NCBI GenBank assembly: GCA_964545895.1
Contig: CAZJHS010000007.1
Coordinates: forward strand, 1 to 63,052
Direction of reading: 5' to 3'
Length of the DNA stretch: 63,052 nucleotides
DNA from: an uncultured Chitinophaga sp.
GTDB lineage: Bacteria; Bacteroidota; Bacteroidia; UKL13-3
The notes beneath the pieces are model-generated. The model was not told the origin of the DNA. It made no database searches and was given only the letters and a program-made list of their open reading frames with translations. A program made the translations under genes and the position numbers. Within the stretch, counting starts at the first letter, position 1, and each line of letters opens with the position of its first letter. Positions 1-29,909 of the stretch are shown in pieces.

Positions 1-49
1 TTCCACTGATGAAGTATGACATGAATGGGTTCGAGCTAATGCTGCTGTA

Positions 50-736
50 TTGTGCCAACGCTTTATTGATGGACATACCAGGGTGCTTGAGGCGGTAGGT
101 GTAAAAAAAGTAACTTCATCGAGCCATGATTGGGCCGATAATCCAGCATCTTTTGTTATTTTAGTAGAATCTGATGACGAAGAAAAAGTACTTGGTGGAG
201 CTAGGATACAAGCTGCAGACGGAAAAACAGCACTACCACTTGAGGATGCGGCTGGTTACATGGATCCAAAAGTATACGAACTTGTTAAACAATATAGCAT
301 TGGTGGTACAGGTGAGGTTTGCGGATTATGGAATTCGATGGAAGTAGCAGGAATGGGTATTGGTAGTATTTTTTTGATAAGAGCTGCACTTGCTATTAGC
401 GAACAAATAGGACTTGATAGCATGTTAGCTTTATGCTCTCCGTATACAACAAGAATTGCGGGGAATTATGGCTTTTTAACAGAAAAATCGGTAGGTAATG
501 AGGGTACATTTTACTATCCTAAACTTGATTTATTAGCAACAGTGGTTTTGCAAAAAGATGCTCCTGGATTATCCAATGCAAGTGAATTAGAAACCAATAG
601 AATATTTGATTTAAGAAAAACACCCATACAAATTACGGATGAACTAGCTAGAAAAAATCAAATTGTACAAATTGAATATAATCTTAAACTTGATATTGAA
701 AACAAAACTGCTTTTAAACTAAGAGAAAATGAATAA
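50..736 (+). CDS. Hypothetical protein with probable GNAT-fold acyltransferase (LuxI/FeeM-like) architecture; 5' end uncertain
   Basis: GGARIQAADG and TGEVCGLWNS segments parallel the LuxI-type GxARL and ExSR motifs. Overlaps the downstream kinase start by 8 nt. Only a TTG start is available after an in-frame TGA at 17-19. Confidence 0.5.
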   Translation: MCQRFIDGHTRVLEAVGVKKVTSSSHDWADNPASFVILVESDDEEKVLGGARIQAADGKTALPLEDAAGYMDPKVYELVKQYSIGGTGEVCGLWNSMEVAGMGIGSIFLIRAALAISEQIGLDSMLALCSPYTTRIAGNYGFLTEKSVGNEGTFYYPKLDLLATVVLQKDAPGLSNASELETNRIFDLRKTPIQITDELARKNQIVQIEYNLKLDIENKTAFKLRENE

Positions 737-2903
737 GCTTATTAAACTTATAATATTAGCGCTTGTTTACAGTACAACACAAACTTGTATTTCGGCACAA
801 TCTATAGGCACTAAACTTTCGGCCAATCAAGTAAGCAGTAAAAACCTCGATTTTAGAGCAAAGTATTCGGTATTCGTTGATTCAACAAACAGGTTAGGTA
901 TTCAAAACATCATGCACAAAGAGTTTGTATCTTATAATACAGACTTATTAAACTTGGGCATTAACGAGTACGCTAATTGGATAAAACTGGATATATACTC
1001 AAGCAACCAAAACGACAACAACTCCATTGAAATTGCCAACCCAATATTAGATTATATTCTTTACTTTAAAACGTTAAACAACCAAATACTTGATAGTAGT
1101 TTAATGGGAGAAGTAGTACCTTTTGAGAATAGAAATAATAATTTACGCTCCTATGTTATCGACTTAAAACTGGATTCTGGAGTTTTGTATACTTACTACT
1201 TTAAAGTAAAAAGTTCGGAGCAATTAAATTTACCCGTTTTCATTACTTCAAAAGAAAAACTTCAATTACGAGAAACAGGAAACAATATAATTGATGGTAT
1301 TTATTTTGGAATCATCCTAGTAATGGTGCTCTATAATTTATTTATATTTTTAAGCACTAAAGACACCAGTTACTTTTACTACATCATCTATATTTTTACT
1401 GTTGGTTTTACCCAGGCTGTACTAAATGGTTATACGTTTAAATACATATGGCCAAACCAAACCTTTGTAACGCAATATTCCACCATAACCTCTGGTGTAC
1501 TCTCTGGTATAGCCACAATCTTCTTTATTCGCAATTTTTTAAATACAAAGCGGTATAGTCCCAAATTTCATAAATTATTATACCTGTTTCTACTTTTATA
1601 CTTTGTCATAGGCATCCTGCTTCTGCTTGGTAAACTTAATTTGGCCTATCAACTTACCAACTTTAATGCGGGTGTAGGTTCTTTTATTTTGCTACTAACG
1701 GCAATAAATGTTTATTTTAAGTACAAGAACAGAACTGCTCTTTTATTCATTTTTGCATGGAGTATTTTTATACTAAGCATTATTGTTTTTGTACTAAAAG
1801 ATTTAGGAGTTATCCCATACAGTGTGTTATCCGTAAAAGGCTTACAAATTGGCTCGGCATGTGAGGTAATCTTGCTTTCTATTGCGCTTGCTGATAAGAT
1901 TAATATACTAAAGCAAGATAAAGATAGAGCGCAAGCAAAAGCACTTTCTATTGCTAATGAAAATGCCCGAATTATTCAGGAACAAAATGTGGTTTTAGAG
2001 CATAAAGTAATTGAACGTACCAAAGCTTTATCCGAAACCAACAACAACTTAAGTGTAGCATTAGATGAACTAAAGTTTGCACAAACACAATTGGTTGAAT
2101 CAGAAAAAATGGCTTCATTGGGTCAATTAACAGCTGGCATTGCGCATGAAATTAACAACCCAATTAATTTTGTTACATCTAATGTAAAGCCACTGCACCG
2201 CGATATTTTAGAGCTTTATAAATTACAAGACGAAACGGAAAAGTACATTCAAGAAAATGGACTGCCACTTACTAATATCGAAAAAATAAAGCAGGCAATT
2301 GACTATGAATATCTAAAAACAGAAATTAATTACCTGCTAAAAGGAATAAACGAAGGATCGGCCAGAACAGCCGAAATTGTAAAAGGTCTTCGTATATTTT
2401 CGAGGGTTGATGAGGATGATATTAAACTTGCCAATATCAACGAAGGGTTAGATTCTACCATAATTATTGTAAACAACCAGCTTAACAATAAAATTGAAAT
2501 TGAAAAGTATTATGCTAACTTACCCTTGATAGATTGCTACCCTGGCAAACTGAACCAAGTTTTTTTAAACCTGATTTCTAACGCTATTTACGCAGTAAAA
2601 GAAAAATTTGGTGACGAGCACGGTGGTAAAATCACTATAAAAACCGAACTTGTTGGAGAAAACATAACCATTTCTATAACCGACAACGGAACAGGTATGA
2701 GTGAAGCAACCAAAAACAAACTATTTGAACCCTTTTTTACAACTAAACCCGTTGGCGATGGAACTGGTCTTGGACTTTCTATTGTATACAATACCATTAA
2801 AAAACATAAAGGTGTAATTTCGGCAACAAGCGAACTTGGTGTTGGAACATCTTTTACTATTTCAATACCTCAAAGGCATATCAATGAGCAATCAAAAAAT
2901 TAA
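729..2903 (+). CDS. 7TM-DISM sensor histidine kinase (extracellular DISMED2, 7TM, coiled coil, HisKA, HATPase)
   Basis: Signal peptide, seven hydrophobic segments (from DGIYFGIILVMVLYNLFIF), H-box AGIAHEINNP, N-box NQVFLNLISNA, and G boxes DNGTGM and GTGLGL. Confidence 0.9.
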   Translation: MNKLIKLIILALVYSTTQTCISAQSIGTKLSANQVSSKNLDFRAKYSVFVDSTNRLGIQNIMHKEFVSYNTDLLNLGINEYANWIKLDIYSSNQNDNNSIEIANPILDYILYFKTLNNQILDSSLMGEVVPFENRNNNLRSYVIDLKLDSGVLYTYYFKVKSSEQLNLPVFITSKEKLQLRETGNNIIDGIYFGIILVMVLYNLFIFLSTKDTSYFYYIIYIFTVGFTQAVLNGYTFKYIWPNQTFVTQYSTITSGVLSGIATIFFIRNFLNTKRYSPKFHKLLYLFLLLYFVIGILLLLGKLNLAYQLTNFNAGVGSFILLLTAINVYFKYKNRTALLFIFAWSIFILSIIVFVLKDLGVIPYSVLSVKGLQIGSACEVILLSIALADKINILKQDKDRAQAKALSIANENARIIQEQNVVLEHKVIERTKALSETNNNLSVALDELKFAQTQLVESEKMASLGQLTAGIAHEINNPINFVTSNVKPLHRDILELYKLQDETEKYIQENGLPLTNIEKIKQAIDYEYLKTEINYLLKGINEGSARTAEIVKGLRIFSRVDEDDIKLANINEGLDSTIIIVNNQLNNKIEIEKYYANLPLIDCYPGKLNQVFLNLISNAIYAVKEKFGDEHGGKITIKTELVGENITISITDNGTGMSEATKNKLFEPFFTTKPVGDGTGLGLSIVYNTIKKHKGVISATSELGVGTSFTISIPQRHINEQSKN

Positions 2904-3987
2904 AGTCTTATTTATTGACGATGAAGTGCATAACCTGCATGCTTTTAAAGCCGCATTTAGGTTTGATTACGACATTGCCATAGCTGAATCTGCAGCCGCA
3001 GCCGAGCAATGGCTGGATGATAATAATGTACAGGTTATTTTATGTGACCAACGCATGCCTGGCAAAACGGGTATTGAATTTTTTAGTACAATTATTAAAA
3101 AGCATCCTAAAACAATGCGCATTTTGGTTACCGGATATACTGATATCGAATCGGTAATTAAAGCCATTAACCAAGGCCATGTTTTTAAATACATTAATAA
3201 ACCTTGGAATGATGCCGACATCAGAACTTCTATTGATGAGGCCTACAAGTTTTATATGCAAAGCTTGGAGTTGGAAAGTAAAATTAACGACTTATCAAAA
3301 GCCTATAAAGATCTAGACAATTTTGCGTACAGCGTTTCGCACGATATGAAAGGCCCGCTTATGAGTATTTTAGGAGCCATGAATATTGTAAATACATCTA
3401 CCAATAAAAACGAAAAAACAGTATTAATGATGCTTGATTTAATAGAGAAAGCAGCCATACAGTTAAATGAGTTTATTGAAAGCATGCATGTTTATTACAA
3501 AAACAATAGAGGTAAACTAAAAATTGAACCGGTAAACCTTTACGATATAAAAACCGAAATTGAAGGTTTATTAGGGTTGAAGTGTATGCAAGAAAAAATT
3601 CAACTGAATTTTACTGTGCAAAACCATGCTAATGCTGATAATTTATACCGCACAGATATTACCAAATTAAAAGTGGTGGTTAATAATTTAGTATCAAATG
3701 CACTAAAATACCAACGTCCGGAGGAACTTAACAAGTACGTAAATGCCAATTTAACCATTGATAACGACATGCTTACTATTACAGTAGAAGACAACGGAAT
3801 GGGCATTGACAACAAATATTTAAACAATATTTTCGAGCTATTTTTTAGAGCCACTACCGAAGTTGGAGGAAGTGGTTTTGGTTTATATAACGTAAAAGAG
3901 ATTATTACTACCTTAGGTGGTACAATACATGTAACTTCGGAGCTAAATAAAGGAACCACCTTTACTGTAAAATTACCCTCTAAATAA
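2884..3987 (+). CDS. Hybrid REC-histidine kinase
   Basis: ATG at 2884 (MSNQKIKVLFIDDE). REC motifs ILCDQRMP and INKPW, H-box SVSHDMKGP, NLVSNA, DNGMG, GSGFGL. Confidence 0.9.
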   Translation: MSNQKIKVLFIDDEVHNLHAFKAAFRFDYDIAIAESAAAAEQWLDDNNVQVILCDQRMPGKTGIEFFSTIIKKHPKTMRILVTGYTDIESVIKAINQGHVFKYINKPWNDADIRTSIDEAYKFYMQSLELESKINDLSKAYKDLDNFAYSVSHDMKGPLMSILGAMNIVNTSTNKNEKTVLMMLDLIEKAAIQLNEFIESMHVYYKNNRGKLKIEPVNLYDIKTEIEGLLGLKCMQEKIQLNFTVQNHANADNLYRTDITKLKVVVNNLVSNALKYQRPEELNKYVNANLTIDNDMLTITVEDNGMGIDNKYLNNIFELFFRATTEVGGSGFGLYNVKEIITTLGGTIHVTSELNKGTTFTVKLPSK

Positions 3988-3995
3988 AATTAAAC

Positions 3996-4379
3996 GTGTT
4001 TAATTATATAATAATTGATGATAATAAAATTGACCTGCTTGTTGCTGGTAAGGCCATTGAAATGAGCCAACAACCAGTAGCTTCAGTGCAACAATTTCTA
4101 AGTGCATCATTTGCATTAGAACATGTGCTCAGTTTTCAATCTCCATACCCAACAATTCTTCTTATTGATATACAAATGCCCGTAATGAATGGATTTGATT
4201 TTATGGAAGAATTTGAAAAACTTGCGCCAGAAACCAGAGCCAACTATATTTGCTTCTTTCTTACCTCCTCTTCTAACGACCTTGATAGGTTAAAAGCTCA
4301 AAAATATCCGAGCTTAAAACAATTTTTAACAAAGCCATTTACAACAGACAAACTGATTAGTTTGCTAAAAACGATTTAA
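3996..4379 (+). CDS. Single-domain response regulator (REC)
   Basis: IIIDDN, LLIDIQMPVMNG and FLTKPF motifs; no output domain. Confidence 0.9.
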   Translation: MFNYIIIDDNKIDLLVAGKAIEMSQQPVASVQQFLSASFALEHVLSFQSPYPTILLIDIQMPVMNGFDFMEEFEKLAPETRANYICFFLTSSSNDLDRLKAQKYPSLKQFLTKPFTTDKLISLLKTI

Positions 4380-4387
4380 TATAAAAA

Positions 4388-7102
4388 ATGAAAAAGTTCT
4401 TCTTAACATTAGTAGTACTTGTTGCCTTATTACTAATTGCAGCTATTGCCTTACCTATTATTTATAAAAGTAAAATAGTGGCACTTGTTAAAACAGAAAT
4501 TAACAACAACGTAAATGCCACTGTAAACTTTAATGATGATATTGAACTAAGCATTATTAAAAGTTTCCCCAATTTTACGCTTGGCATTAACAACCTTAGT
4601 GTAGTTGGTATTAACGAGTTTGATGGCGATACTCTGGTAGCCATGGATAAGCTAGAAACTGTTATTGATATTATGACAGTGATAAAAGGTGAACCAATAG
4701 GTATTAAAAAAATTGCTTTAGAAACACCACGTATTCATGCGCTTGTGCTTAGCAATGGTAAAGCCAATTGGGATATTGCTAAACCAAGTAACGATTCAAC
4801 AACTGCAACAACAGATACCGCTGCTACCAAGTTTCATGTAAAGCTTAAGAAATTTGAAATTAGCAACGGATTTATTGTGTATGATGACAAGACTATGGGA
4901 GTTAATACCAAACTTGATGGGTTTAATTATGATATGACAGGTGATTTTACTCAAGACGATTTCCTGTTGCAAATAAAATCAACCATAAAACAATGGGATA
5001 TGACTTATGGTGGTGTTAAATACCTAAACAAGGTAAATACCGACATAAATGTTGACATGAATATGAACATGCCCAACATGAAATTTACCTTTAACAACAA
5101 CTCATTTAAGTTAAACGAGCTTACCTTTAATTTTGATGGTTTTGTGCAAATGCTAAATGATGATATTGTAATGGACATTAAATATGATGCGCCAAACAAT
5201 TCGTTTAAAAACTTTTTGTCGCTTGTACCAGGTATGTACACCAAAGATTTTGCTGATTTAAAAACAAGTGGAACTTTAAGTTTTAACGGAACAGCCAAGG
5301 GCACCTACAACGAAAAATCGTTACCTGCATTTAATCTAAATTTATTAGTGGCAAATGCCATGTTTCAACACCCAACTTTACCTGTACCAGTTAAAGATGT
5401 ACAAATTAATTTAAACGTAGCCAATAAAGATGGCAACCTAAATAACACCATTGTAAACTTAAGCAAGTTCCACATGGATATTGCCGGAGATGCTTTTGAC
5501 GCTAAATTAATAGCAAATGATATTATGCAGGACCCACACATTGATTCGTGGTTAAAAGGACGCATAAACTTAGATAACATTTCTAAAATTGTACCTCTTG
5601 AAAACGGCATGGAAATTCACGGAATAATTACTAGTGATGTAACTGCAGTTGGTAAAATTTCGGCTATTGAGAAACAACAATTTGAACAATTTAACGCAAC
5701 CGGACAAATAGCTACACAAAACATTAAGTTTAAATCTGCCGATTTACCAATGGGCTTTAACTCAAACGAAGCACTTTTAGTTTTTAACCCTAAAACAGTA
5801 GCTTTAAAAACATTTGATGCGCAGGTAGGTAAATCAGACTTTAAATTGAACGGTGAAATCAGCAATTTTTTCCCTTATTTATTCAGTAATGGTATTATAC
5901 AAGGAAAGTTAAATTTAACATCAACCCAAATTGATGCCAACCAATTTTTGAGTAACGAACCAGAAACTACTGCACCAAAAGCTGAAGATACAACAGCAAT
6001 GGATGCTCCTGAAATACCTGCCAACATTGATTTTACCTTCACTGGTAATGTTGGAAAATTGCTTTACTCTAATATGGAAATAAGTAATTTTGCAGGTTCG
6101 ATAAAAGTAAAAGACCAGAAGTTAAATTTTGAAAATGTTGCGTTAAATACCTTAGGTGCAGCCATCAAAATGAATGGATTTTACGAAACAACAAATCACC
6201 TAAAACCTACCACCAACATTGATTTTTCTATTGAAAACTTAGACATGCAATTAGCGGCTAAAACATTTAATAGTATTAAAAAAATTGCGCCAATTATTGA
6301 AAAATCACATGGCAGTTTTTCTACCACACTATCATTAGTTACTACCCTTGATAAACATTTAAATCCTGTATACAGCACATTATTTGCCAATGGTATTTGT
6401 AAAATAATGAATGCCGAAATTAAAGACGTAAAAGTATTAGATGAAGTAGCCAAGGCTTTAAAAAATGACAAATACAAAACACTTAACCTCCAAAATGTTA
6501 CTGTAAAATATAAAGTAGAAAATGGCAGGGTTTACACCGAGCCATTTAATGTAGCTGTAGTAGGCAAAACACTTACTTTGGCAGGATCAAGTGGTTTAGA
6601 TCAAACCATAGATTACACAGGTACAACACAAGTACAACGAGGCGAATTAGGTAAAATAAATACAGCCTTAGAAAGCTCGTTAAACAGCTTAAATAACAAA
6701 CTTGGTTCAAACATAACCGCAAGCCAAAACCTAAATATAGGATTAGGCATAAAAGGAACTTTTAGTAAACCAATTATTACAACTAACCTGGCCGATTTAG
6801 CTAAGCAAGAAGCAAACTCATTAAAAGATCAAGCTAAAGCCGAGCTAGAAAAACAAAAGAAATTACTTGAAGATAAAGCAAAAGCTGAAGCCGAAAGATT
6901 GAAACAAGAAGCTCAGGCAAAAGCAAAGTCCGAAATAGATAAAGCCAAACAGCAAGCACAAGCAGAAGCCGATAAACTAAAAGCGGCAGCAGAAAAAGCC
7001 AAAGCAGAAGCCGAGGCCAAAGCCGCAGCAGAAAAAGAAAGGCTTAAAAAACAAGCCGAAGAAGAAGCCAAAAAGAAATTAAAAGGACTGCTAAAACCTT
7101 AA
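4388..7102 (+). CDS. AsmA-family (AsmA-like) envelope protein with Ala/Lys/Glu helical C-tail
   Basis: N-terminal TM anchor, long beta-rich body (FPNFTLGINNLSV), C-terminal GSSGLDQTIDY segment and AKAEAE repeats. Confidence 0.8.
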   Translation: MKKFFLTLVVLVALLLIAAIALPIIYKSKIVALVKTEINNNVNATVNFNDDIELSIIKSFPNFTLGINNLSVVGINEFDGDTLVAMDKLETVIDIMTVIKGEPIGIKKIALETPRIHALVLSNGKANWDIAKPSNDSTTATTDTAATKFHVKLKKFEISNGFIVYDDKTMGVNTKLDGFNYDMTGDFTQDDFLLQIKSTIKQWDMTYGGVKYLNKVNTDINVDMNMNMPNMKFTFNNNSFKLNELTFNFDGFVQMLNDDIVMDIKYDAPNNSFKNFLSLVPGMYTKDFADLKTSGTLSFNGTAKGTYNEKSLPAFNLNLLVANAMFQHPTLPVPVKDVQINLNVANKDGNLNNTIVNLSKFHMDIAGDAFDAKLIANDIMQDPHIDSWLKGRINLDNISKIVPLENGMEIHGIITSDVTAVGKISAIEKQQFEQFNATGQIATQNIKFKSADLPMGFNSNEALLVFNPKTVALKTFDAQVGKSDFKLNGEISNFFPYLFSNGIIQGKLNLTSTQIDANQFLSNEPETTAPKAEDTTAMDAPEIPANIDFTFTGNVGKLLYSNMEISNFAGSIKVKDQKLNFENVALNTLGAAIKMNGFYETTNHLKPTTNIDFSIENLDMQLAAKTFNSIKKIAPIIEKSHGSFSTTLSLVTTLDKHLNPVYSTLFANGICKIMNAEIKDVKVLDEVAKALKNDKYKTLNLQNVTVKYKVENGRVYTEPFNVAVVGKTLTLAGSSGLDQTIDYTGTTQVQRGELGKINTALESSLNSLNNKLGSNITASQNLNIGLGIKGTFSKPIITTNLADLAKQEANSLKDQAKAELEKQKKLLEDKAKAEAERLKQEAQAKAKSEIDKAKQQAQAEADKLKAAAEKAKAEAEAKAAAEKERLKKQAEEEAKKKLKGLLKP

Positions 7103-7157
7103 AACATTTACAGTTCGCAAACGTTTAATAGTACAAATAAGTTATAATAAGTAAAAA

Positions 7158-7652
7158 ATGAAAAAAGCAATATTTGCAGTTCTTACACTTGGATTAGTGT
7201 ACAGCTGCGGCAACTCAACTAAACCAGCAGAAACTGCTAACACAGAAACTACAGCGGCTGCTCCTGCAGAAGCTAAAAGTTATGAATTTACCCTAAATGC
7301 TGTTGGTAATACCATGGCTGATATGGGTTACGACACCAAAGAACTTAAAGTAACTGCGGGTGCAAAAGTAAAAATTAACTTAACCAACCAAGGTACTGAT
7401 GCATCAATGTTACACAATGTGGTTATTGTTAAACAAGGCACAGAAAAAGATGTGGCTACTGAAGGTATTAGCTTAAAAGACAAAAATTACTTCAACGCGG
7501 AGAATACTAATGTTATTGCTGGTTCAGCAGTTGCAGCTCCAGGCGCTACCGTAACTGTTGAGTTTACTGCTCCTGCTGCAGGTACTTATACTTACATCTG
7601 TACATACCCAGGCCATTGGATGAAAATGCAAGGTGTGTTGATTGTAGAATAA
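7158..7652 (+). CDS. Azurin/auracyanin-type blue copper lipoprotein
   Basis: Lipobox LVYSC; type-1 Cu ligands HNVVI and YICTYPGHWMKM. Confidence 0.85.
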   Translation: MKKAIFAVLTLGLVYSCGNSTKPAETANTETTAAAPAEAKSYEFTLNAVGNTMADMGYDTKELKVTAGAKVKINLTNQGTDASMLHNVVIVKQGTEKDVATEGISLKDKNYFNAENTNVIAGSAVAAPGATVTVEFTAPAAGTYTYICTYPGHWMKMQGVLIVE

Positions 7653-7671
7653 GAAAAAAACATTCGACTTA

Positions 7672-7712
7672 AAAGCCGCGTCAAAACTAGTTTTGACGCG
7701 GCTTTATTTTTT
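7672..7712 (+). terminator. Intrinsic terminator formed by a perfect 34-bp palindrome plus T-tract
   Basis: AAAGCCGCGTCAAAACT|AGTTTTGACGCGGCTTT (7672-7705) followed by ATTTTTTT. Confidence 0.85.
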
Positions 7713-7777
7713 TGTAAACTTGTTAAATAATTTTTTTGGAACGGCATTTGCTAAACAACAACCAAATACTTCAAACC

Positions 7778-8371
7778 ATGATAAAAAGAATTTTAATTTT
7801 AGTGCCAGCAATAATTGGCTTATTGGTTACCCAATCTTGTTCTCCTAACAGAAAAGTAACCCGTGTAGACCCTGCTTTACAAACTGATTTAAGCGGGCGT
7901 TGGAATGATAGCGATTCTCGTTTGGTTGCAAACGAAATGATTAATCAAATATTGAGTGCCGCTTGGCGAACAAATTTCGAACAAAAAATGTCGCGTAAAC
8001 CTGTGCTTATCGTTGGTAATATCAAAAACAAAACCTCCGAACAAATAGACCCGGTTACTTTTATTAAAGACTTGGAACGTGCTTGCATAAACTCAACTAC
8101 CGTTTCTATCGTTCAATCGGGTGAAGACCGCAATCAAGTAAGAGAAGAGCGTAACGAACAACAAACTTTCTCGAGTGAAGACACCAAGAAAAAATGGGGT
8201 AAAGAAAAAGGTGCAGATTACATGATTACAGGTGTGATTTCTTCAATTGTTGATTCGTACAAAAATCAACGCACCATTTACTACCAAGTAGATTTGGAAC
8301 TAACCGACTTGGAGTCGAACGAAAAAGTTTGGATTGGTGATAAAAAAATTAAAAAAGTAGTACGTAACTAA
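7778..8371 (+). CDS. lpoB: LpoB-family (penicillin-binding protein activator) lipoprotein
   Basis: ATG 7778, lipobox TQSC; DLSGRWNDSDSRLVA, GADYMITGVISSIVD and YYQVDLELTDLE motifs. Confidence 0.75.
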   Translation: MIKRILILVPAIIGLLVTQSCSPNRKVTRVDPALQTDLSGRWNDSDSRLVANEMINQILSAAWRTNFEQKMSRKPVLIVGNIKNKTSEQIDPVTFIKDLERACINSTTVSIVQSGEDRNQVREERNEQQTFSSEDTKKKWGKEKGADYMITGVISSIVDSYKNQRTIYYQVDLELTDLESNEKVWIGDKKIKKVVRN

Positions 8372-27386: not shown

Positions 27387-29909
27387 ATGAAAAACACCTG
27401 GTTAAAATACACGCTAATTACCTTACTAATTTTATTCTTACTTGGATTAAGCTTAGCCGGCTATTTATATTTAAGCAAAGATCGTATTAAAAACTATGCA
27501 TTAGCCGAGCTGAATAAAAACCTGAATACAACTCTTACCATTGGCCAAATAGACCTCTCGCTTTTTAAACAATTCCCTAAAGTAAGTTTAGATTTAAACC
27601 AGGTTCATTTGGCTAATCCGCAACAACCTAAATCGGATTTACTATTTGCGCAGCATGTATACATAGGGTTTAATATTTACGATATTATTCGCAAACAGTT
27701 TAACATTAGGCTTATTGCAATTGATAGCGCCTCCATTAACCTAGTTACAGATAAAAAAGGGAAACACAATTTTGATATCCTAAAAACACAACAAAATGGA
27801 GCAAAATCATCATCAGACAATGCCCTTTTAACCCTTAAAGAAGTGCTATTTAAGGGCGTTGATGTAAGCTATACTAATTACCAAAACAGTCAGTTTTACG
27901 ATGTAAACCTAAAAGACGTTGCCTTTAGTGGCAATTTTACCAACAGCAGCGAAAACATGAGCTGTAGTGGATTAGCGTTTATACGAACACTAAAATCAGC
28001 CCAACTAAAATTGCTTAAAAATAAATTACTTACGCTTGATTTAGCTGTAAATATTGACCACAAAACACAAACCTACACCATTGCTAAAGGCAATTTTGAT
28101 ATTGACTTGCTTCAGCTTGAAAGCAAAGGCAGCATTAGCAATAAAGGGAAAGGCATAACCTATGATTTAGATTTTGGCGCACGAAACCTAAAAATACAAT
28201 CGCTTTTAAGTTTAATACCTGTTAATATTTCGTTACCCGATAACCTGAGCAGTGATGGTGAATTGTTTTTTACAGGAAGTATTCGTGGTACCCAAGATAA
28301 AAAAAACAACCCTGCTATTGATTTTAAATTTGGGGTAAAAAATGGCTGGGTAAAAAACACCGATGGGTTTGCTATCAACCAAATAAACTTTACGGGTTTA
28401 ATGACTAATGGCATTAAACATCAAGCATCCACATCAAGCGTTAAATTAAACAATTTAACACTACGTATTGGCAGTGGAAACATATCAGGAAACCTTGCAG
28501 TAAACAACCTAAGTAACCCCGATTTAAAACTGGATTTAAACGGAAACTTAGCAGCCGAAGATGTACTTAACTTTATTGGCAAAAAAACAATTGCTACTGC
28601 AACTGGAGATATTAAGTTTAACATTGGGTTTGATGGCAATTTAAACCAACTAACTAAAACCAGCTGGACCCAAAACCAATCGGTTGGCGAACTTGAACTT
28701 AACTTAAGTAATTTACAGCTGGCCAATCAAAATAAAATAGTAAAAACAGTAAAGGCGCAACTTAGCATTAACAATAAAGATGTATTGATTAAAGCCTTTG
28801 ATGCTAACATTGATCAATCTGATGTGCATGTGAGTGGTTCGTTAAACAACCTTATCCCTTACTTGCTTCAGCCTAACCAAGATCTTCAAGCCAATATTAT
28901 TTATCAATCTACTTACCTTGATTTAAACCATTTTATGATGCCTACTTCGGCATCATCAACAGATAGTAATAATGCTGCTATTGCGCTTCCTGAGCACATA
29001 AGCATTAAAGCTCAAATAAAAACCAACGAGTTTGTTTACAATTTATTTAATGCTAAAAATGTACAGGCCGAACTTACTTGGAAAGATAAAATTATTACTG
29101 TTGATGATTTAAGTGCAGAAACTTTGGATGGACGTTTGAAACTAAATGGACAGATTGAGAATGCACAAGATGGCCGTTTTTTACTAACTGCAGATGCTAC
29201 CTTAGCTGATATTAATATTACCAAATTATTTAAATCGTGTGCTGATTTTGGCCAACAAGAAATTACCCAAAAACATTTAAAGGGTAACTTAAGTGGCACT
29301 ATTAACTTGGCAAGCGTGTGGAGTGCAGAGCTAACTTGCGACTTGAACAAACTTTATGTGTTGAGCAAAATACAAATTACCAATGGCGAGCTAAATGGCT
29401 ACGAACCACTTAAAGCGCTTAGTAAATTTATTGATGTAAACGATTTGGAGAAATTAAAGTTTGCCGAAATTAAAAACAGCATTGAGATTAAAAACAAAAC
29501 GATTTTTATACCTCAGTTTGATGTAAAAAACAACGCACTTAACATTACATTAAGTGGCACACATACGTTTGATAATTTTGTAGATTATAAATTAAAACTT
29601 AAGCTAAGCGAATTGCTAAAAAACAAACGCAAAGCTGTTTCTGCTAACAACGAGTTTAACGAAGAAGAAGTTACAGCCGACAAAGGTGTAAACCTTTATT
29701 TAAGCATGAAAGGACCGATTAGCAACATAAAAATTAGCTACGATAAAATAGGAACCAAGCAAAAAATCACCCAAGAGTTGAAACAAGAAAAACAAAACAT
29801 TAAAGAGATATTGAAGAAAGAATTAGGTATTTCAACGGGCGACAAAAAGGAAAACGAAATTAAGGAGAAGAAAAACGATACAGACGAATTGGAGTTTGAA
29901 CCTGAGTAA
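27387..29909 (+). CDS. Second AsmA-like family protein
   Basis: N-terminal TM, FPKVSLDL, beta-rich repeats, LSGTHTFDNFVDY C-terminal segment. Confidence 0.75.
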   Translation: MKNTWLKYTLITLLILFLLGLSLAGYLYLSKDRIKNYALAELNKNLNTTLTIGQIDLSLFKQFPKVSLDLNQVHLANPQQPKSDLLFAQHVYIGFNIYDIIRKQFNIRLIAIDSASINLVTDKKGKHNFDILKTQQNGAKSSSDNALLTLKEVLFKGVDVSYTNYQNSQFYDVNLKDVAFSGNFTNSSENMSCSGLAFIRTLKSAQLKLLKNKLLTLDLAVNIDHKTQTYTIAKGNFDIDLLQLESKGSISNKGKGITYDLDFGARNLKIQSLLSLIPVNISLPDNLSSDGELFFTGSIRGTQDKKNNPAIDFKFGVKNGWVKNTDGFAINQINFTGLMTNGIKHQASTSSVKLNNLTLRIGSGNISGNLAVNNLSNPDLKLDLNGNLAAEDVLNFIGKKTIATATGDIKFNIGFDGNLNQLTKTSWTQNQSVGELELNLSNLQLANQNKIVKTVKAQLSINNKDVLIKAFDANIDQSDVHVSGSLNNLIPYLLQPNQDLQANIIYQSTYLDLNHFMMPTSASSTDSNNAAIALPEHISIKAQIKTNEFVYNLFNAKNVQAELTWKDKIITVDDLSAETLDGRLKLNGQIENAQDGRFLLTADATLADINITKLFKSCADFGQQEITQKHLKGNLSGTINLASVWSAELTCDLNKLYVLSKIQITNGELNGYEPLKALSKFIDVNDLEKLKFAEIKNSIEIKNKTIFIPQFDVKNNALNITLSGTHTFDNFVDYKLKLKLSELLKNKRKAVSANNEFNEEEVTADKGVNLYLSMKGPISNIKISYDKIGTKQKITQELKQEKQNIKEILKKELGISTGDKKENEIKEKKNDTDELEFEPE

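What the first reader, a model, noticed from the sequence alone, without database searches (positions are those of the whole stretch)
50..4379. Candidate signal-synthase plus sensor phosphorelay (LuxI/FeeM-like acyltransferase, 7TM-DISM kinase, REC-kinase, REC)
Seen: four co-oriented genes with overlaps or gaps of 8 nt or less. The last three have intact His/Asp motifs and no DNA-binding output domain. Established: 7TM-DISM domains are extracellular small-molecule sensors, and LuxI and FeeM are GNAT-fold enzymes that make N-acyl signals. Inference: ORF1 (GGARIQ...GEVCGLWN) makes an acylated signal that the adjacent kinase reads, giving a quorum-sensing-like circuit in a phylum without a well-defined LuxI/LuxR system.
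Basis: partly seen in the sequence, partly recalled or inferred. Interest (0 to 1): 0.7.

Follow-up and report, generated by a model that had tools for sequence, protein, structure and literature searches.

The report
Lipid-signal synthase wired to sensor kinases
These genes pair an enzyme predicted to make N-acyl amino-acid lipids (oxazolone precursors whose natural role is unknown) with a membrane sensor kinase relay; the pairing is kept across Bacteroidota, so the kinase is a testable candidate receptor for a self-made chemical signal.

Summary
The four genes are real. ORF1 has no Pfam, NCBIfam or PDB sequence match.

The window cuts the operon. Bases 1-46 are contradicted by contigs from six public runs, which carry an intact 242-aa ORF1. 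A 99%-identical relative has an upstream ThiF gene, the cyclase half of the Rv1355c/TrzS family (N-acyl oxazolone synthase).

In 80 species genomes, 76 of 77 informative ORF1 loci carry a 7TMR-DISM histidine kinase beside it. Usually a REC-kinase and REC-only proteins follow. A ThiF-type cyclase (55 loci) or a methyltransferase (24 loci) sits next to ORF1, and never both.

The kinase is a mosaic. Its 7TM block follows the tailoring-enzyme class (2 label changes on its tree). Its kinase core follows taxonomy (10 changes; AU p = 9e-6).

Best reading (about 0.55): an N-acyl amino-acid-derived signal (oxazolone or methyl ester) and its receptor relay. It resembles Ralstonia phcBSRQ in layout and agr/comQXP in polymorphism. 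No chemistry or sensing has been tested. Other agents of this scan reached the same reading in other genomes.

The parts
1..46 (.). Sequence not supported by public data. It is probably a chimeric or erroneous contig end and it replaces the true 5' end of ORF1.
   Evidence: It does not align to L001-L004, which are near-identical from base 47 on. Contigs of six runs (X1-X4, X25, X26) diverge exactly at base 47 and carry the intact ORF1 N-terminus instead. No copy occurs elsewhere in the window.
47..736 (+). ORF1, 5'-truncated (residues 14-242 of a 242-aa protein). It is a FeeM/LuxI-fold GNAT and the predicted N-acyl amino acid synthase of the cassette. Invariant family residues include G63-G64-x-R66, E103-x-C-G-L-W-N-S110 and G166-x-F-Y-Y-P-K172.
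   Evidence: 99% identical to P0001. AF2 model pLDDT 92, pTM 0.90. Foldseek top hits: FeeM 2g0b at E 4e-8, then BjaI, RpaI and TofI. No Pfam, NCBIfam or PDB sequence hit.
729..2903 (+). 7TMR-DISM sensor histidine kinase, 724 aa, with phospho-acceptor H473. It is the candidate receptor.
   Evidence: Pfam 7TMR-DISMED2, 7TMR-DISM_7TM, HisKA and HATPase_c. Motif positions. Found next to ORF1 homologues in 76 of 80 loci.
864..1898 (+). Sensor block of the kinase: DISMED2 (aa 46-172, nt 864-1244) and the 7TM bundle (aa 186-390, nt 1284-1898). In relatives this part is exchanged together with the tailoring enzyme.
   Evidence: Tailoring-enzyme class needs 2 label changes on the 7TM tree and 5 on the DISMED2 tree, against 10 on the kinase-core tree. 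For the pair L036/L069, HK residues 1-330 are 12-38% identical and residues beyond 393 are 80-100% identical.
2884..3987 (+). REC-HisKA-HATPase hybrid protein (D55, H153), soluble and without a DNA-binding domain. It is the second tier of the relay.
   Evidence: Pfam. Motifs. The family is present in 66 of 80 loci directly after the 7TM kinase.
3996..4379 (+). Stand-alone receiver (REC) protein, 127 aa, D58.
   Evidence: Pfam Response_reg only. The family is present in 34 of 80 loci.
4388..7102 (+). AsmA/DUF748-like gene that starts 8 nt after the REC gene. It is a lineage-specific appendix, not part of the conserved cassette.
   Evidence: Weak DUF748 hit. Present after the cassette in only 10 of 80 loci, all close relatives. 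A small contig of an RNA-labelled run spans 4366-4565.
7672..7705 (+). First strong terminator-like hairpin downstream of the gene run.
   Evidence: 15-bp stem followed by a T-run. It is the only strong + strand terminator-like site between 1 and 8000.

Best explanation
The window holds the downstream part of a conserved Bacteroidota cassette that couples synthesis of an N-acyl amino-acid-derived lipid to a dedicated phosphorelay.

Proposed mechanism, with the status of each step:
(1) ORF1 is a FeeM/LuxI-fold acyltransferase. It N-acylates an amino acid from acyl-CoA or acyl-ACP. The fold is shown; the activity is inferred.
(2) A neighbouring tailoring enzyme neutralises the free carboxylate. 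In this lineage it is a ThiF-type ATP-dependent cyclase, the N-terminal half of the Rv1355c/TrzS family, encoded just upstream of the window. Because it lacks the flavin oxidase half, it would give a saturated 5(4H)-oxazolone. Other lineages carry the full ThiF-oxidase fusion, a SAM methyltransferase or an ICMT-type methyltransferase, which would give unsaturated oxazolones or methyl esters. Family assignment and mutual exclusivity are shown; the products are inferred.
(3) The lipophilic product is sensed by the DISMED2/7TM block of the adjacent kinase. This is inferred from conserved adjacency and from the exchange of sensor block and tailoring enzyme as one unit while the ORF1 core, kinase core and REC-kinase stay conserved.
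(4) Phosphoryl groups pass from the kinase (H473) to the REC-kinase hybrid (D55, H153) and on to REC-only proteins: ORF4 D58 and a 155-aa REC protein encoded at the cassette edge in relatives. These would act through protein-protein contacts, because the cassette has no DNA-binding output. The domains are shown; the order of transfer is inferred by analogy with phcBSRQ.
For: Fold: AF2 model pLDDT 92. Foldseek ranks FeeM first (E 4e-8, TM 0.72-0.75 on the target) and then the AHL synthases, ahead of generic GNATs at about 1e-5. A homologue of the TrzA position, encoded beside an Rv1355c-family gene on a Rhodococcus plasmid, has the same two top neighbours, FeeM and BjaI. The literature reports the same two neighbours for TyzA (PMC10404671).

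Partner enzyme: the upstream ThiF gene in the 99%-identical locus L003 scores 442 bits on positions 6-342 of NF005901 'Rv1355c family'. Fused forms next to ORF1 homologues score 802 bits, above the 476-bit cut-off. Rv1355c is TrzS, an ATP-dependent cyclase fused to an oxidase that converts N-acyl-Trp to tryptazolone. Its cyclase alone yields the saturated ring (PMC12856293). A ThiF-ORF1 fusion protein exists (P0368, L089).

Synteny in 80 species genomes with ORF1 identity down to 48%: a 7TMR-DISM kinase lies nearby in 76 loci, and three of the other four end at or just beyond the cassette genes, before a kinase gene could appear. REC-kinase 66, 155-aa REC 74, ThiF-type 55 and methyltransferase 24, the last two never together. 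The linkage persists in three of six informative samples at 30-34% identity.

Mosaic: tailoring class needs 2 changes on the 7TM tree, the minimum possible. It needs 9-11 on the ORF1, kinase-core and REC-kinase trees. Kinase-core data reject monophyly of the methyltransferase class (p-AU 8.7e-6). 7TM data reject monophyly of Sphingobacterium (p-AU 5e-53). In the pair L036 (ThiF) and L069 (methyltransferase), ORF1 is 92-100% identical over most of its length, HK residues 1-330 are 12-38%, HK beyond residue 393 is 80-100%, and REC-kinase is 80-100%.

Architecture: synthase, membrane kinase, REC-kinase and REC is the layout of phcBSRQ (PMC8578825).
Against: No chemistry, ligand binding or phosphotransfer has been measured for any member.

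ORF1 has no significant sequence similarity to TrzA-like proteins (hhalign E 0.028, probability 1.8%) or to any curated family.

The exchanged block is physically contiguous (ORF1 tail, enzyme, sensor). The co-variation could therefore be passive: recombination may simply resolve in the conserved flanks.

Within the ThiF class, ThiF distances track the kinase core (r 0.75) no worse than the 7TM block (r 0.63). Presence of the oxidase domain is not tracked by the 7TM tree.

Some family members lack the kinase: L070, L089, L093/L094 and the TIR fusion L087.

In this window the ThiF gene is not present.

No exporter and no output regulator were identified.
Confidence: 0.55

Rival explanations
1. 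The enzymes make an N-acyl amino-acid or oxazolone lipid with a non-signalling role, such as a stress, membrane or antimicrobial lipid. The 7TMR-DISM relay senses a different cue, for example a glycan through DISMED2 or envelope stress, and merely controls or accompanies that pathway. The lipid would be an output or a co-regulated trait, not the ligand.
For: Pathway-specific two-component systems are common next to biosynthetic genes (general knowledge). From my recollection, not checked here, DISMED2 was predicted to bind carbohydrate. Oxazolone production in Proteobacteria is induced by antibiotics, and no phenotype was seen on adding the compounds (bioRxiv 10.1101/2020.06.11.147165). Tryptazolones were mainly intracellular. 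Biosynthetic pairs exist without the kinase. There is no fine-scale ThiF-7TM co-divergence within the ThiF class.
Against: The cassette has no DNA-binding output through which it could control the operon. The sensor block, and only it, switches with the tailoring-enzyme class while the kinase core does not. A cue unrelated to the product would not be expected to produce that pattern, except by hitch-hiking.
Confidence: 0.3
2. ORF1 is not an amino-acid N-acyltransferase. It could be a LuxI-like AHL synthase that uses SAM, or a GNAT that acylates another amine, a peptide or a protein, for example a component of the relay.
For: Foldseek scores for FeeM and the AHL synthases are close (4e-8 against 1e-7) and generic GNATs follow within about two logs. 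There is no sequence-level family assignment.
Against: There is no match to the LuxI Pfam model. The constant partner is a carboxylate-activating ThiF of the TrzS family or a methyltransferase, including an ICMT-type enzyme whose best match is a carboxyl O-methyltransferase. Both fit a product with a free carboxylate, meaning an N-acyl amino acid rather than a lactone or an acylated protein. A ThiF-ORF1 fusion exists.
Confidence: 0.1
3. The ORF1-type domain acts in a conflict or defence context, and the cassette is a sensor-effector module rather than a communication system.
For: Close ORF1-family members are fused to TIR_2, LRR or Mrr_cat restriction-endonuclease domains (P0252, P0254, P0376).
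Against: These are 3 of the 150 best cluster representatives, and the one examined stands alone without kinase or ThiF. The conserved cassette has no recognisable effector, toxin or nuclease.
Confidence: 0.05

Closest known systems
TrzAS (Rv1356c/Rv1355c), TyzACB and OxzAB N-acyl oxazolone pathways (PMC12856293, PMC10404671, bioRxiv 10.1101/2020.06.11.147165)
   Same: A small FeeM/BjaI-fold N-acyltransferase is encoded next to, or fused with, a ThiF-type ATP-dependent cyclase of the Rv1355c family. Full-length ThiF-oxidase fusions beside ORF1 homologues pass the NCBIfam cut-off (802 bits against 476).
   Different: The lineage of this window has only the cyclase half and no flavin oxidase. Other lineages replace the cyclase with methyltransferases. 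ORF1 shows no significant sequence similarity to TrzA-like proteins (hhalign E 0.028). The Bacteroidota cassette adds a dedicated 7TMR-DISM kinase, a REC-kinase and REC proteins. None of the four oxazolone or ThiF papers searched for the term contains 'histidine kinase'. The role of the oxazolones is stated there to be unknown.
phcBSRQ quorum-sensing operon of Ralstonia (PMC8578825)
   Same: One operon encodes a signal synthase, a membrane sensor histidine kinase, a soluble REC plus histidine-kinase protein without DNA-binding domain, and a REC-only protein. Synthase and sensor sequences sort strains by signal type. The signal is a neutral lipid ester.
   Different: PhcB is a methyltransferase that acts on 3-hydroxy fatty acids. 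The PhcS sensor is not described as a 7TMR-DISM receptor in the text read. The phylum differs. Homology of the relay proteins was not tested here.
LuxI-type AHL synthases and FeeM N-acyl amino acid synthase
   Same: They share the GNAT-derived fold and are the best Foldseek matches (2g0b, 5w8e, 6wn0, 3p2h, 1k4j, 1ro5).
   Different: There is no sequence-model match. ORF1 carries an extra C-terminal helix and beta-hairpin (residues 193-225). Its partner enzymes imply a product with a free carboxylate rather than a homoserine lactone.
agr (Staphylococcus) and comQXP (Bacillus) pherotype loci (recalled from general knowledge, not retrieved here)
   Same: A hypervariable block covers the signal-tailoring function and the receptor's sensor domain, and it is flanked by a conserved kinase core and response components.
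   Different: Those systems use peptide signals. Here the variable unit is a lipid-tailoring enzyme class plus a DISMED2/7TM block, and functional specificity groups have not been demonstrated.
7TMR-DISM receptors such as RetS, LadS and NicD of Pseudomonas (recalled from general knowledge)
   Same: They share the DISMED2 plus 7TM sensor architecture fused to signalling output domains.
   Different: None is known to be paired with a dedicated ligand synthase, and their proposed ligands are not lipids.

Membership tests
LuxI-type autoinducer synthase (Pfam PF00765) | Significant match to the family sequence model | tested here: not met
   No Pfam family matched the window ORF1 at E <= 0.01, or its 99%-identical full-length form P0001 and P0083 at E <= 10. 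No NCBIfam hit.
LuxI-type autoinducer synthase (Pfam PF00765) | LuxI/GNAT-like three-layer fold | tested here: met
   Foldseek hits to BjaI, RpaI, TofI, MesI, EsaI and LasI at E 1e-7 to 2e-5.
LuxI-type autoinducer synthase (Pfam PF00765) | Use of SAM and lactonisation to an acyl-homoserine lactone | not testable with these tools
   This needs enzymology. The partner enzymes (ThiF, methyltransferases) argue for a product with a free carboxylate instead.
FeeM-type N-acyl amino acid synthase | FeeM-like fold as the nearest solved structure | tested here: met
   2g0b chains rank first, E 4e-8, TM 0.72-0.75 on the target.
FeeM-type N-acyl amino acid synthase | Sequence homology to FeeM | tested here: not met
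   A profile of 52 homologues searched against all PDB sequences gave no hit below E = 1.
FeeM-type N-acyl amino acid synthase | N-acylation of an amino acid | not testable with these tools
   This needs expression and LC-MS.
OxzA/TyzA/TrzA-type acyltransferase of oxazolone gene clusters | Encoded next to or fused with a ThiF-type cyclase of the Rv1355c/TrzS/OxzB group | tested here: met
   55 of 80 loci. NF005901 scores 442 and 802 bits. In L003 the ThiF gene overlaps ORF1 by 14 nt. ThiF-ORF1 fusion P0368. The ThiF gene is not inside this window because of the contig break.
OxzA/TyzA/TrzA-type acyltransferase of oxazolone gene clusters | Sequence homology to TrzA-like proteins | tested here: inconclusive
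   hhalign of the ORF1 family against 34 TrzA-position homologues gave E 0.028 and probability 1.8%. The 152 aligned columns are colinear and put GGxR, Glu and Trp invariants in register. Both families have the same top Foldseek neighbours.
OxzA/TyzA/TrzA-type acyltransferase of oxazolone gene clusters | Flavin-dependent oxidase (nitroreductase-family) partner giving the unsaturated oxazolone | tested here: not met
   The ThiF gene of the window's lineage (L003, 379 aa) has no nitroreductase domain. No homologue of the fused form occurs in the 63-kb window. Fused forms occur in 16 of 80 other loci. The rest of this genome could not be searched.
7TMR-DISM receptor histidine kinase | 7TMR-DISMED2 and 7TMR-DISM_7TM domains above the Pfam cut-offs, with a kinase core | tested here: met
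   76 bits (cut-off 22) and 165.6 bits (cut-off 29), plus HATPase_c at 83.8 bits. H473 is present.
Two-component phosphorelay | Conserved His and Asp phospho-acceptors and catalytic boxes | tested here: met
   H473; D55 and H153; D58; N, G1 and G2 boxes.
Quorum-sensing (autoinducer-receptor) system | Signal synthase and cognate receptor genetically linked and co-varying | tested here: met
   Adjacency in 76 of 77 informative loci. Sensor block and tailoring class co-vary at the class level. No finer co-divergence was seen.
Quorum-sensing (autoinducer-receptor) system | Extracellular accumulation of the signal and a density-dependent response through the receptor | not testable with these tools
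   This needs culture experiments.

The most novel reading that the evidence does not exclude
Environmental Bacteroidota are a phylum with no defined dedicated autoinducer system. On this reading they carry a widespread, polymorphic cell-cell (or self) signalling system. One conserved FeeM-fold synthase makes an N-acyl amino acid. Interchangeable tailoring enzymes (ThiF cyclase, ThiF-oxidase, SAM or ICMT-type methyltransferase) convert it into neutral oxazolone or methyl-ester 'dialects'. A matching, co-exchanged DISMED2/7TM sensor block of a dedicated kinase reads each dialect and feeds a phc-like HK, REC-HK, REC relay. This would give N-acyl oxazolones their first biological role and first receptor. 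It would also give 7TMR-DISM receptors a first cognate, genetically encoded ligand.
Probability: 0.4. Interest if true: 0.9.

Novelty: new variant of a known kind. Interest (0 to 1): 0.7.

Why it matters
N-acyl oxazolones were discovered only recently (OxzAB in 2020-21, TyzACB in 2023, TrzAS in 2025). The authors state that their physiological role is unresolved and only speculate that they might be signals. No receptor is known.

From my own recollection, Bacteroidota lack a defined autoinducer synthase-receptor pair, and 7TMR-DISM receptors have almost no known ligands.

A conserved operon puts the synthase, a swappable tailoring enzyme and a swappable 7TM sensor side by side. That turns all three open questions into one bench experiment in cultured, non-pathogenic carriers such as Sphingobacterium, Mucilaginibacter, Sediminibacterium and Arachidicoccus. 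The natural ThiF and methyltransferase allele pairs within Sphingobacterium have nearly identical ORF1 and kinase cores, so they provide ready-made specificity controls.

The idea is not unique to this window. Other agents of this scan reported the same cassette in at least eight other genomes.

Tried and rejected
I therefore could not locate the window in its genome, look for an oxidase gene or orphan receptors elsewhere, or count cassettes per genome.
- Sequence-level family assignment of ORF1 failed everywhere: Pfam (E up to 10 for the 99%-identical full-length form), NCBIfam, and a 52-sequence profile against the PDB.
- hhalign against a single TrzA-position homologue, against a 34-sequence alignment of them, and against a Kitasatospora GNAT?-ThiF fusion gave only non-significant colinear alignments.
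- tblastn of the ThiF, ThiF-oxidase, methyltransferase and 155-aa REC families against the whole window found no extra copies, apart from the REC of ORF3.
- The promoter scan was uninformative: 33 sites against 30.6 expected.
- Fine-scale co-divergence of ThiF with the 7TM block within the ThiF class was tested by correlation and partial Mantel and was not found. ThiF follows the kinase core at least as well. I therefore restrict the co-variation claim to the class level.
- Chance adjacency of ORF1 and the kinase is rejected by the synteny counts.
- The AsmA-like gene is not part of the conserved cassette (10 of 80 loci).
- RNA evidence is too thin to establish the operon: three small contigs in one RNA-labelled metagenome run, which may contain DNA.

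Full report
**Observation**

Window 1-7800 carries a run of + strand genes.
- ORF2 (729-2903, 724 aa) has 7TMR-DISMED2, 7TMR-DISM_7TM, HisKA and HATPase_c.
- ORF3 has Response_reg, HisKA and HATPase_c.
- ORF4 (3996-4379) is a bare receiver.
- None has a DNA-binding domain.
- The phospho-acceptors and catalytic boxes are intact: ORF2 H473; ORF3 D55 and H153; ORF4 D58.
- Junctions: ORF1/ORF2 overlap by 8 nt. ORF2/ORF3 overlap by 20 nt from the homologue-supported ATG 2884. ORF3/ORF4 and ORF4/ORF5 are each separated by 8 nt.
- The first strong terminator-like hairpin on the + strand is at 7672-7705.

**The 5' end**

ORF1 as listed (TTG 50) lacks the first strand of its fold.
- A 99%-identical protein (P0001, 242 aa) begins MVKIKAFRATENKV.
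- DNA of four contigs that encode it aligns with the window only from base 47.
- Contigs from six public wastewater, bioreactor and freshwater metagenome runs match the window with no differences from base 47. All carry ...ATTAAAGCATTTAGGGCCACGGAAAATAAG before it.
- Bases 1-46 occur nowhere else in the window.

The window therefore begins with 46 unsupported bases, most simply a bad contig end. ORF1 is intact in the population. In L003 a 379-aa ThiF-family gene ends 14 nt inside ORF1. The operon extends upstream of the window.

**What ORF1 is**

It has no Pfam, NCBIfam or PDB sequence match.
- The family is large. There are 1072 hits in the 90%-identity collection, and those that carry an organism name are Bacteroidota. 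There are 572 clusters at 50% identity with E <= 1e-3.
- The AlphaFold model from a 52-sequence alignment is confident (pLDDT 92, pTM 0.90).
- Foldseek against the PDB ranks FeeM first (2g0b, E 4e-8). The acyl-homoserine-lactone synthases BjaI, RpaI, TofI, MesI, EsaI and LasI follow. Generic GNATs come at about 1e-5.
- Invariant residues lie on the core strands: GG-x-R at 63-66, and E103 with CGLWNS on strand 4 ahead of a GMGIGS loop. That loop resembles the GNAT pyrophosphate-binding motif; the resemblance is my reading and was not tested.

**The partner enzyme links the cassette to known chemistry**

- The upstream ThiF protein scores 442 bits on positions 6-342 of NCBIfam NF005901, 'Rv1355c family'.
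- In other Bacteroidota the gene next to ORF1 is a 750-780-aa ThiF-nitroreductase fusion. It scores 802 bits over the whole model, above the 476-bit cut-off.
- Rv1355c is TrzS. With the acyltransferase TrzA (Rv1356c) it makes N-acyl tryptazolones. Its ThiF domain performs ATP-dependent cyclisation first, and the flavin oxidase then desaturates. The saturated ring accumulates when the oxidase is disabled (PMC12856293).
- TyzACB and OxzAB are the related tyrazolone pathways. TyzA's nearest structures are reported as FeeM 2G0B and BjaI 5W8C (PMC10404671). These are the same two neighbours I obtained for ORF1.
- As a control I took the 252-aa hypothetical protein encoded beside an Rv1355c-family gene on a Rhodococcus qingshengii plasmid. 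I collected its family and modelled it (pLDDT 89.7). Its top Foldseek hits are again FeeM and BjaI.
- Profile-profile comparison of the two acyltransferase families is colinear over 152 columns and aligns the GGxR, Glu and Trp invariants. It is not significant (E 0.028, probability 1.8%).

ORF1 therefore occupies the TrzA/OxzA position and has the same fold, but sequence homology is unproven.

**Synteny**

A scan of one genome per species found 575 relatives, and I analysed the best 80 loci. By tblastn and by clustering ORFs:
- A 7TMR-DISM kinase lies just downstream in 76 loci. Of the other four, L012 and L056 end just after ORF1 and L007 ends just after the ThiF-oxidase gene, so only L070 clearly lacks a kinase.
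- A REC-kinase follows in 66 loci.
- A 155-aa REC-only protein flanks the cassette in 74 loci, usually on the opposite strand.
- The ORF4-type REC occurs in 34 loci.
- Next to ORF1 there is always one tailoring enzyme: ThiF (39), ThiF-oxidase (16), a SAM methyltransferase (19) or an ICMT-family membrane methyltransferase (5). The ThiF and methyltransferase types never occur together within +/-10 kb.
- Gene order varies: ThiF lies before or after ORF1, and the REC gene lies on either side. Membership stays the same.
- The carriers span Sphingobacteriaceae, Chitinophagaceae, Saprospiraceae, several Flavobacteriales families and Roseivirgaceae.

At 30-34% identity the kinase linkage holds in three of six informative samples (L088, L091, L092). 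L089 (a ThiF-ORF1 fusion), L093/L094 (ThiF-oxidase, ORF1 and an 809-aa aminotransferase-domain protein) and L087 (a TIR fusion) lack it. The ThiF link is therefore deeper than the kinase link.

**Mosaic structure, the main new test here**

I labelled 65 cassettes by tailoring class: ThiF type 45, SAM methyltransferase 17, ICMT type 3. I then counted the label changes needed on trees of each part.

| Part | Label changes |
|---|---|
| 7TM block | 2 (the minimum possible) |
| DISMED2 | 5 |
| ORF1 | 9 |
| Kinase core | 10 |
| REC-kinase | 11 |
| Shuffled labels | about 18 |

- On the 7TM tree all 17 methyltransferase-class kinases form one clade (SH-aLRT 99) that spans Sphingobacteriaceae and Flavobacteriales.
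- On the kinase-core tree of the same proteins they are interleaved with ThiF-class kinases by taxon.
- The kinase-core data reject monophyly of the methyltransferase class (p-AU 8.7e-6). The 7TM data reject monophyly of Sphingobacterium (p-AU 5e-53).
- In L036 (ThiF) against L069 (methyltransferase), both Sphingobacterium, ORF1 is 92-100% identical until its last ~50 residues. Kinase residues 1-330 are 12-38% identical. Kinase residues beyond 393 are 80-100% identical, and the REC-kinase is 80-100%.

The variable unit is therefore the ORF1 tail, the tailoring enzyme and the DISMED2/7TM sensor. It sits between conserved synthase and kinase cores. As I recall them, the agr and comQXP pherotype loci have the same anatomy.

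Caveats:
- The block is contiguous, so co-transfer could be passive.
- Within the ThiF class there is no extra ThiF-7TM co-divergence (r 0.63, against 0.75 with the kinase core).
- Splitting the ThiF class by oxidase presence adds as many label changes on the 7TM tree (4) as on the other trees (4-5), so the sensor does not track the oxidase.

**Mechanism proposed**

1. ORF1 N-acylates an amino acid.
2. The tailoring enzyme masks the carboxylate. Here, ThiF alone would give a saturated 5(4H)-oxazolone. Elsewhere the products would be unsaturated oxazolones or methyl esters.
3. The neutral lipid partitions into membranes and is read by the DISMED2/7TM block.
4. The signal passes from the kinase to the REC-kinase and then to REC-only proteins, which act by protein contacts.

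The layout of synthase, membrane kinase, REC-kinase and REC is that of Ralstonia phcBSRQ. There PhcR is a REC plus kinase protein without a DNA-binding domain and PhcQ is REC-only, and synthase and sensor sequences sort strains by signal type (PMC8578825).

Shown: folds, family assignments, linkage and the mosaic. Inferred: every chemical and signalling step.

**Rivals**

- (i) The relay senses something else and the lipid is a stress or antimicrobial product. This fits the intracellular location of tryptazolones and the kinase-less pairs. It does not explain why only the sensor block switches with the tailoring class, except by hitch-hiking.
- (ii) ORF1 has another acyl acceptor. This is disfavoured because the ThiF partner activates carboxylates and the ICMT-type partner best matches a carboxyl methyltransferase, and because a ThiF-ORF1 fusion exists.
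- (iii) A conflict-system role, suggested by rare TIR, LRR and Mrr fusions.

**Novelty**

The oxazolone and ThiF papers that the full-text searches returned never mention a histidine kinase, Bacteroidota carriers or 7TMR-DISM, and they call the role of oxazolones unknown. Within this scan, other agents had already reported the same cassette and reading in other genomes. I reached my reading before seeing those notes and re-tested their central claims. They are not independent evidence.

**Limits**

- The organism is known only from metagenomes.
- Transcript evidence is three small contigs in one RNA-labelled run.

Noticed in passing
window 1-46: The first 46 bases of the window are contradicted by contigs of six public runs and by four near-identical loci. 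This looks like a chimeric or erroneous contig end, so the annotated ORF1 start (TTG 50) is spurious.
   Followed up: yes
window 4388-7102: An AsmA/DUF748-like 904-aa gene with an Ala/Lys/Glu-rich tail follows the REC gene after 8 nt. It accompanies the cassette only in the closest relatives (10 of 80 loci). A small contig of an RNA-labelled run spans the junction (4366-4565). A second, distant AsmA-like gene lies at about 27387-29909.
   Followed up: partly
L087:269-1981 (P0252); also P0254 and P0376: Close ORF1-family domains occur fused to a TIR_2 domain, to leucine-rich repeats and to an Mrr_cat restriction-endonuclease domain. The TIR fusion examined (L087) is stand-alone, with no kinase or ThiF on its 3.6-kb contig; the LRR and Mrr_cat contexts were not examined. 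The domain may also be used in conflict systems.
   Followed up: partly
L088:4174-6867 (P0350): One metagenome contig encodes ORF1 and the 7TMR-DISM kinase as a single 897-aa ORF inside an otherwise normal cassette (ThiF, fusion, REC-kinase, REC). It is either a real synthase-receptor fusion or a frameshift artefact at the usual 8-nt overlap.
   Followed up: partly
L089:6001-7899 (P0368): A 632-aa ThiF-ORF1 fusion protein in a MAG, with no kinase nearby. It is a Rosetta-stone link between cyclase and acyltransferase.
   Followed up: partly
L093:2640-8369 and L094: A marine variant has ThiF-oxidase, ORF1 and an 809-aa protein with an Aminotran_1_2 domain in place of the kinase. Reverse-transcriptase and McrB-type defence genes follow.
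   Followed up: no
L086:5227-8111 (Kitasatospora plasmid): A 616-aa 'ThiF family adenylyltransferase' has a ThiF part that is 49% identical to the Bacteroidota enzyme. Its 258-aa N-terminal extension gives only weak GNAT hits (Acetyltransf_7, E 0.044). A ketoacyl-ACP synthase III gene follows and a LuxR-type regulator is nearby. This may be an actinobacterial fused version of the pathway.
   Followed up: partly
L085:2829-7031 (Rhodococcus qingshengii plasmid): An Rv1355c-family gene, its divergent TrzA-like neighbour and a GGDEF-domain gene lie together. This echoes the c-di-GMP genes next to trzAS in M. tuberculosis that the literature notes.
   Followed up: no
ORF1 residues ~190-242 (window ~620-733): The C-terminal helix and beta-hairpin extension of ORF1 lies beyond the FeeM-like core. 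Its identity drops together with the exchanged enzyme/sensor block in Sphingobacterium pairs (from 92-100% to 42-85%). It may be a docking surface for the tailoring enzyme, or simply the recombination edge.
   Followed up: partly
flank of the cassette in L005-L084 (e.g. L005:8263-8727, minus strand): A 155-aa REC-only protein with a conserved C-terminal tail (...QLEFLLRQKLLS) flanks the cassette in 74 of 80 loci. Its REC domain resembles that of ORF3. In this genome it would lie upstream of the window.
   Followed up: partly
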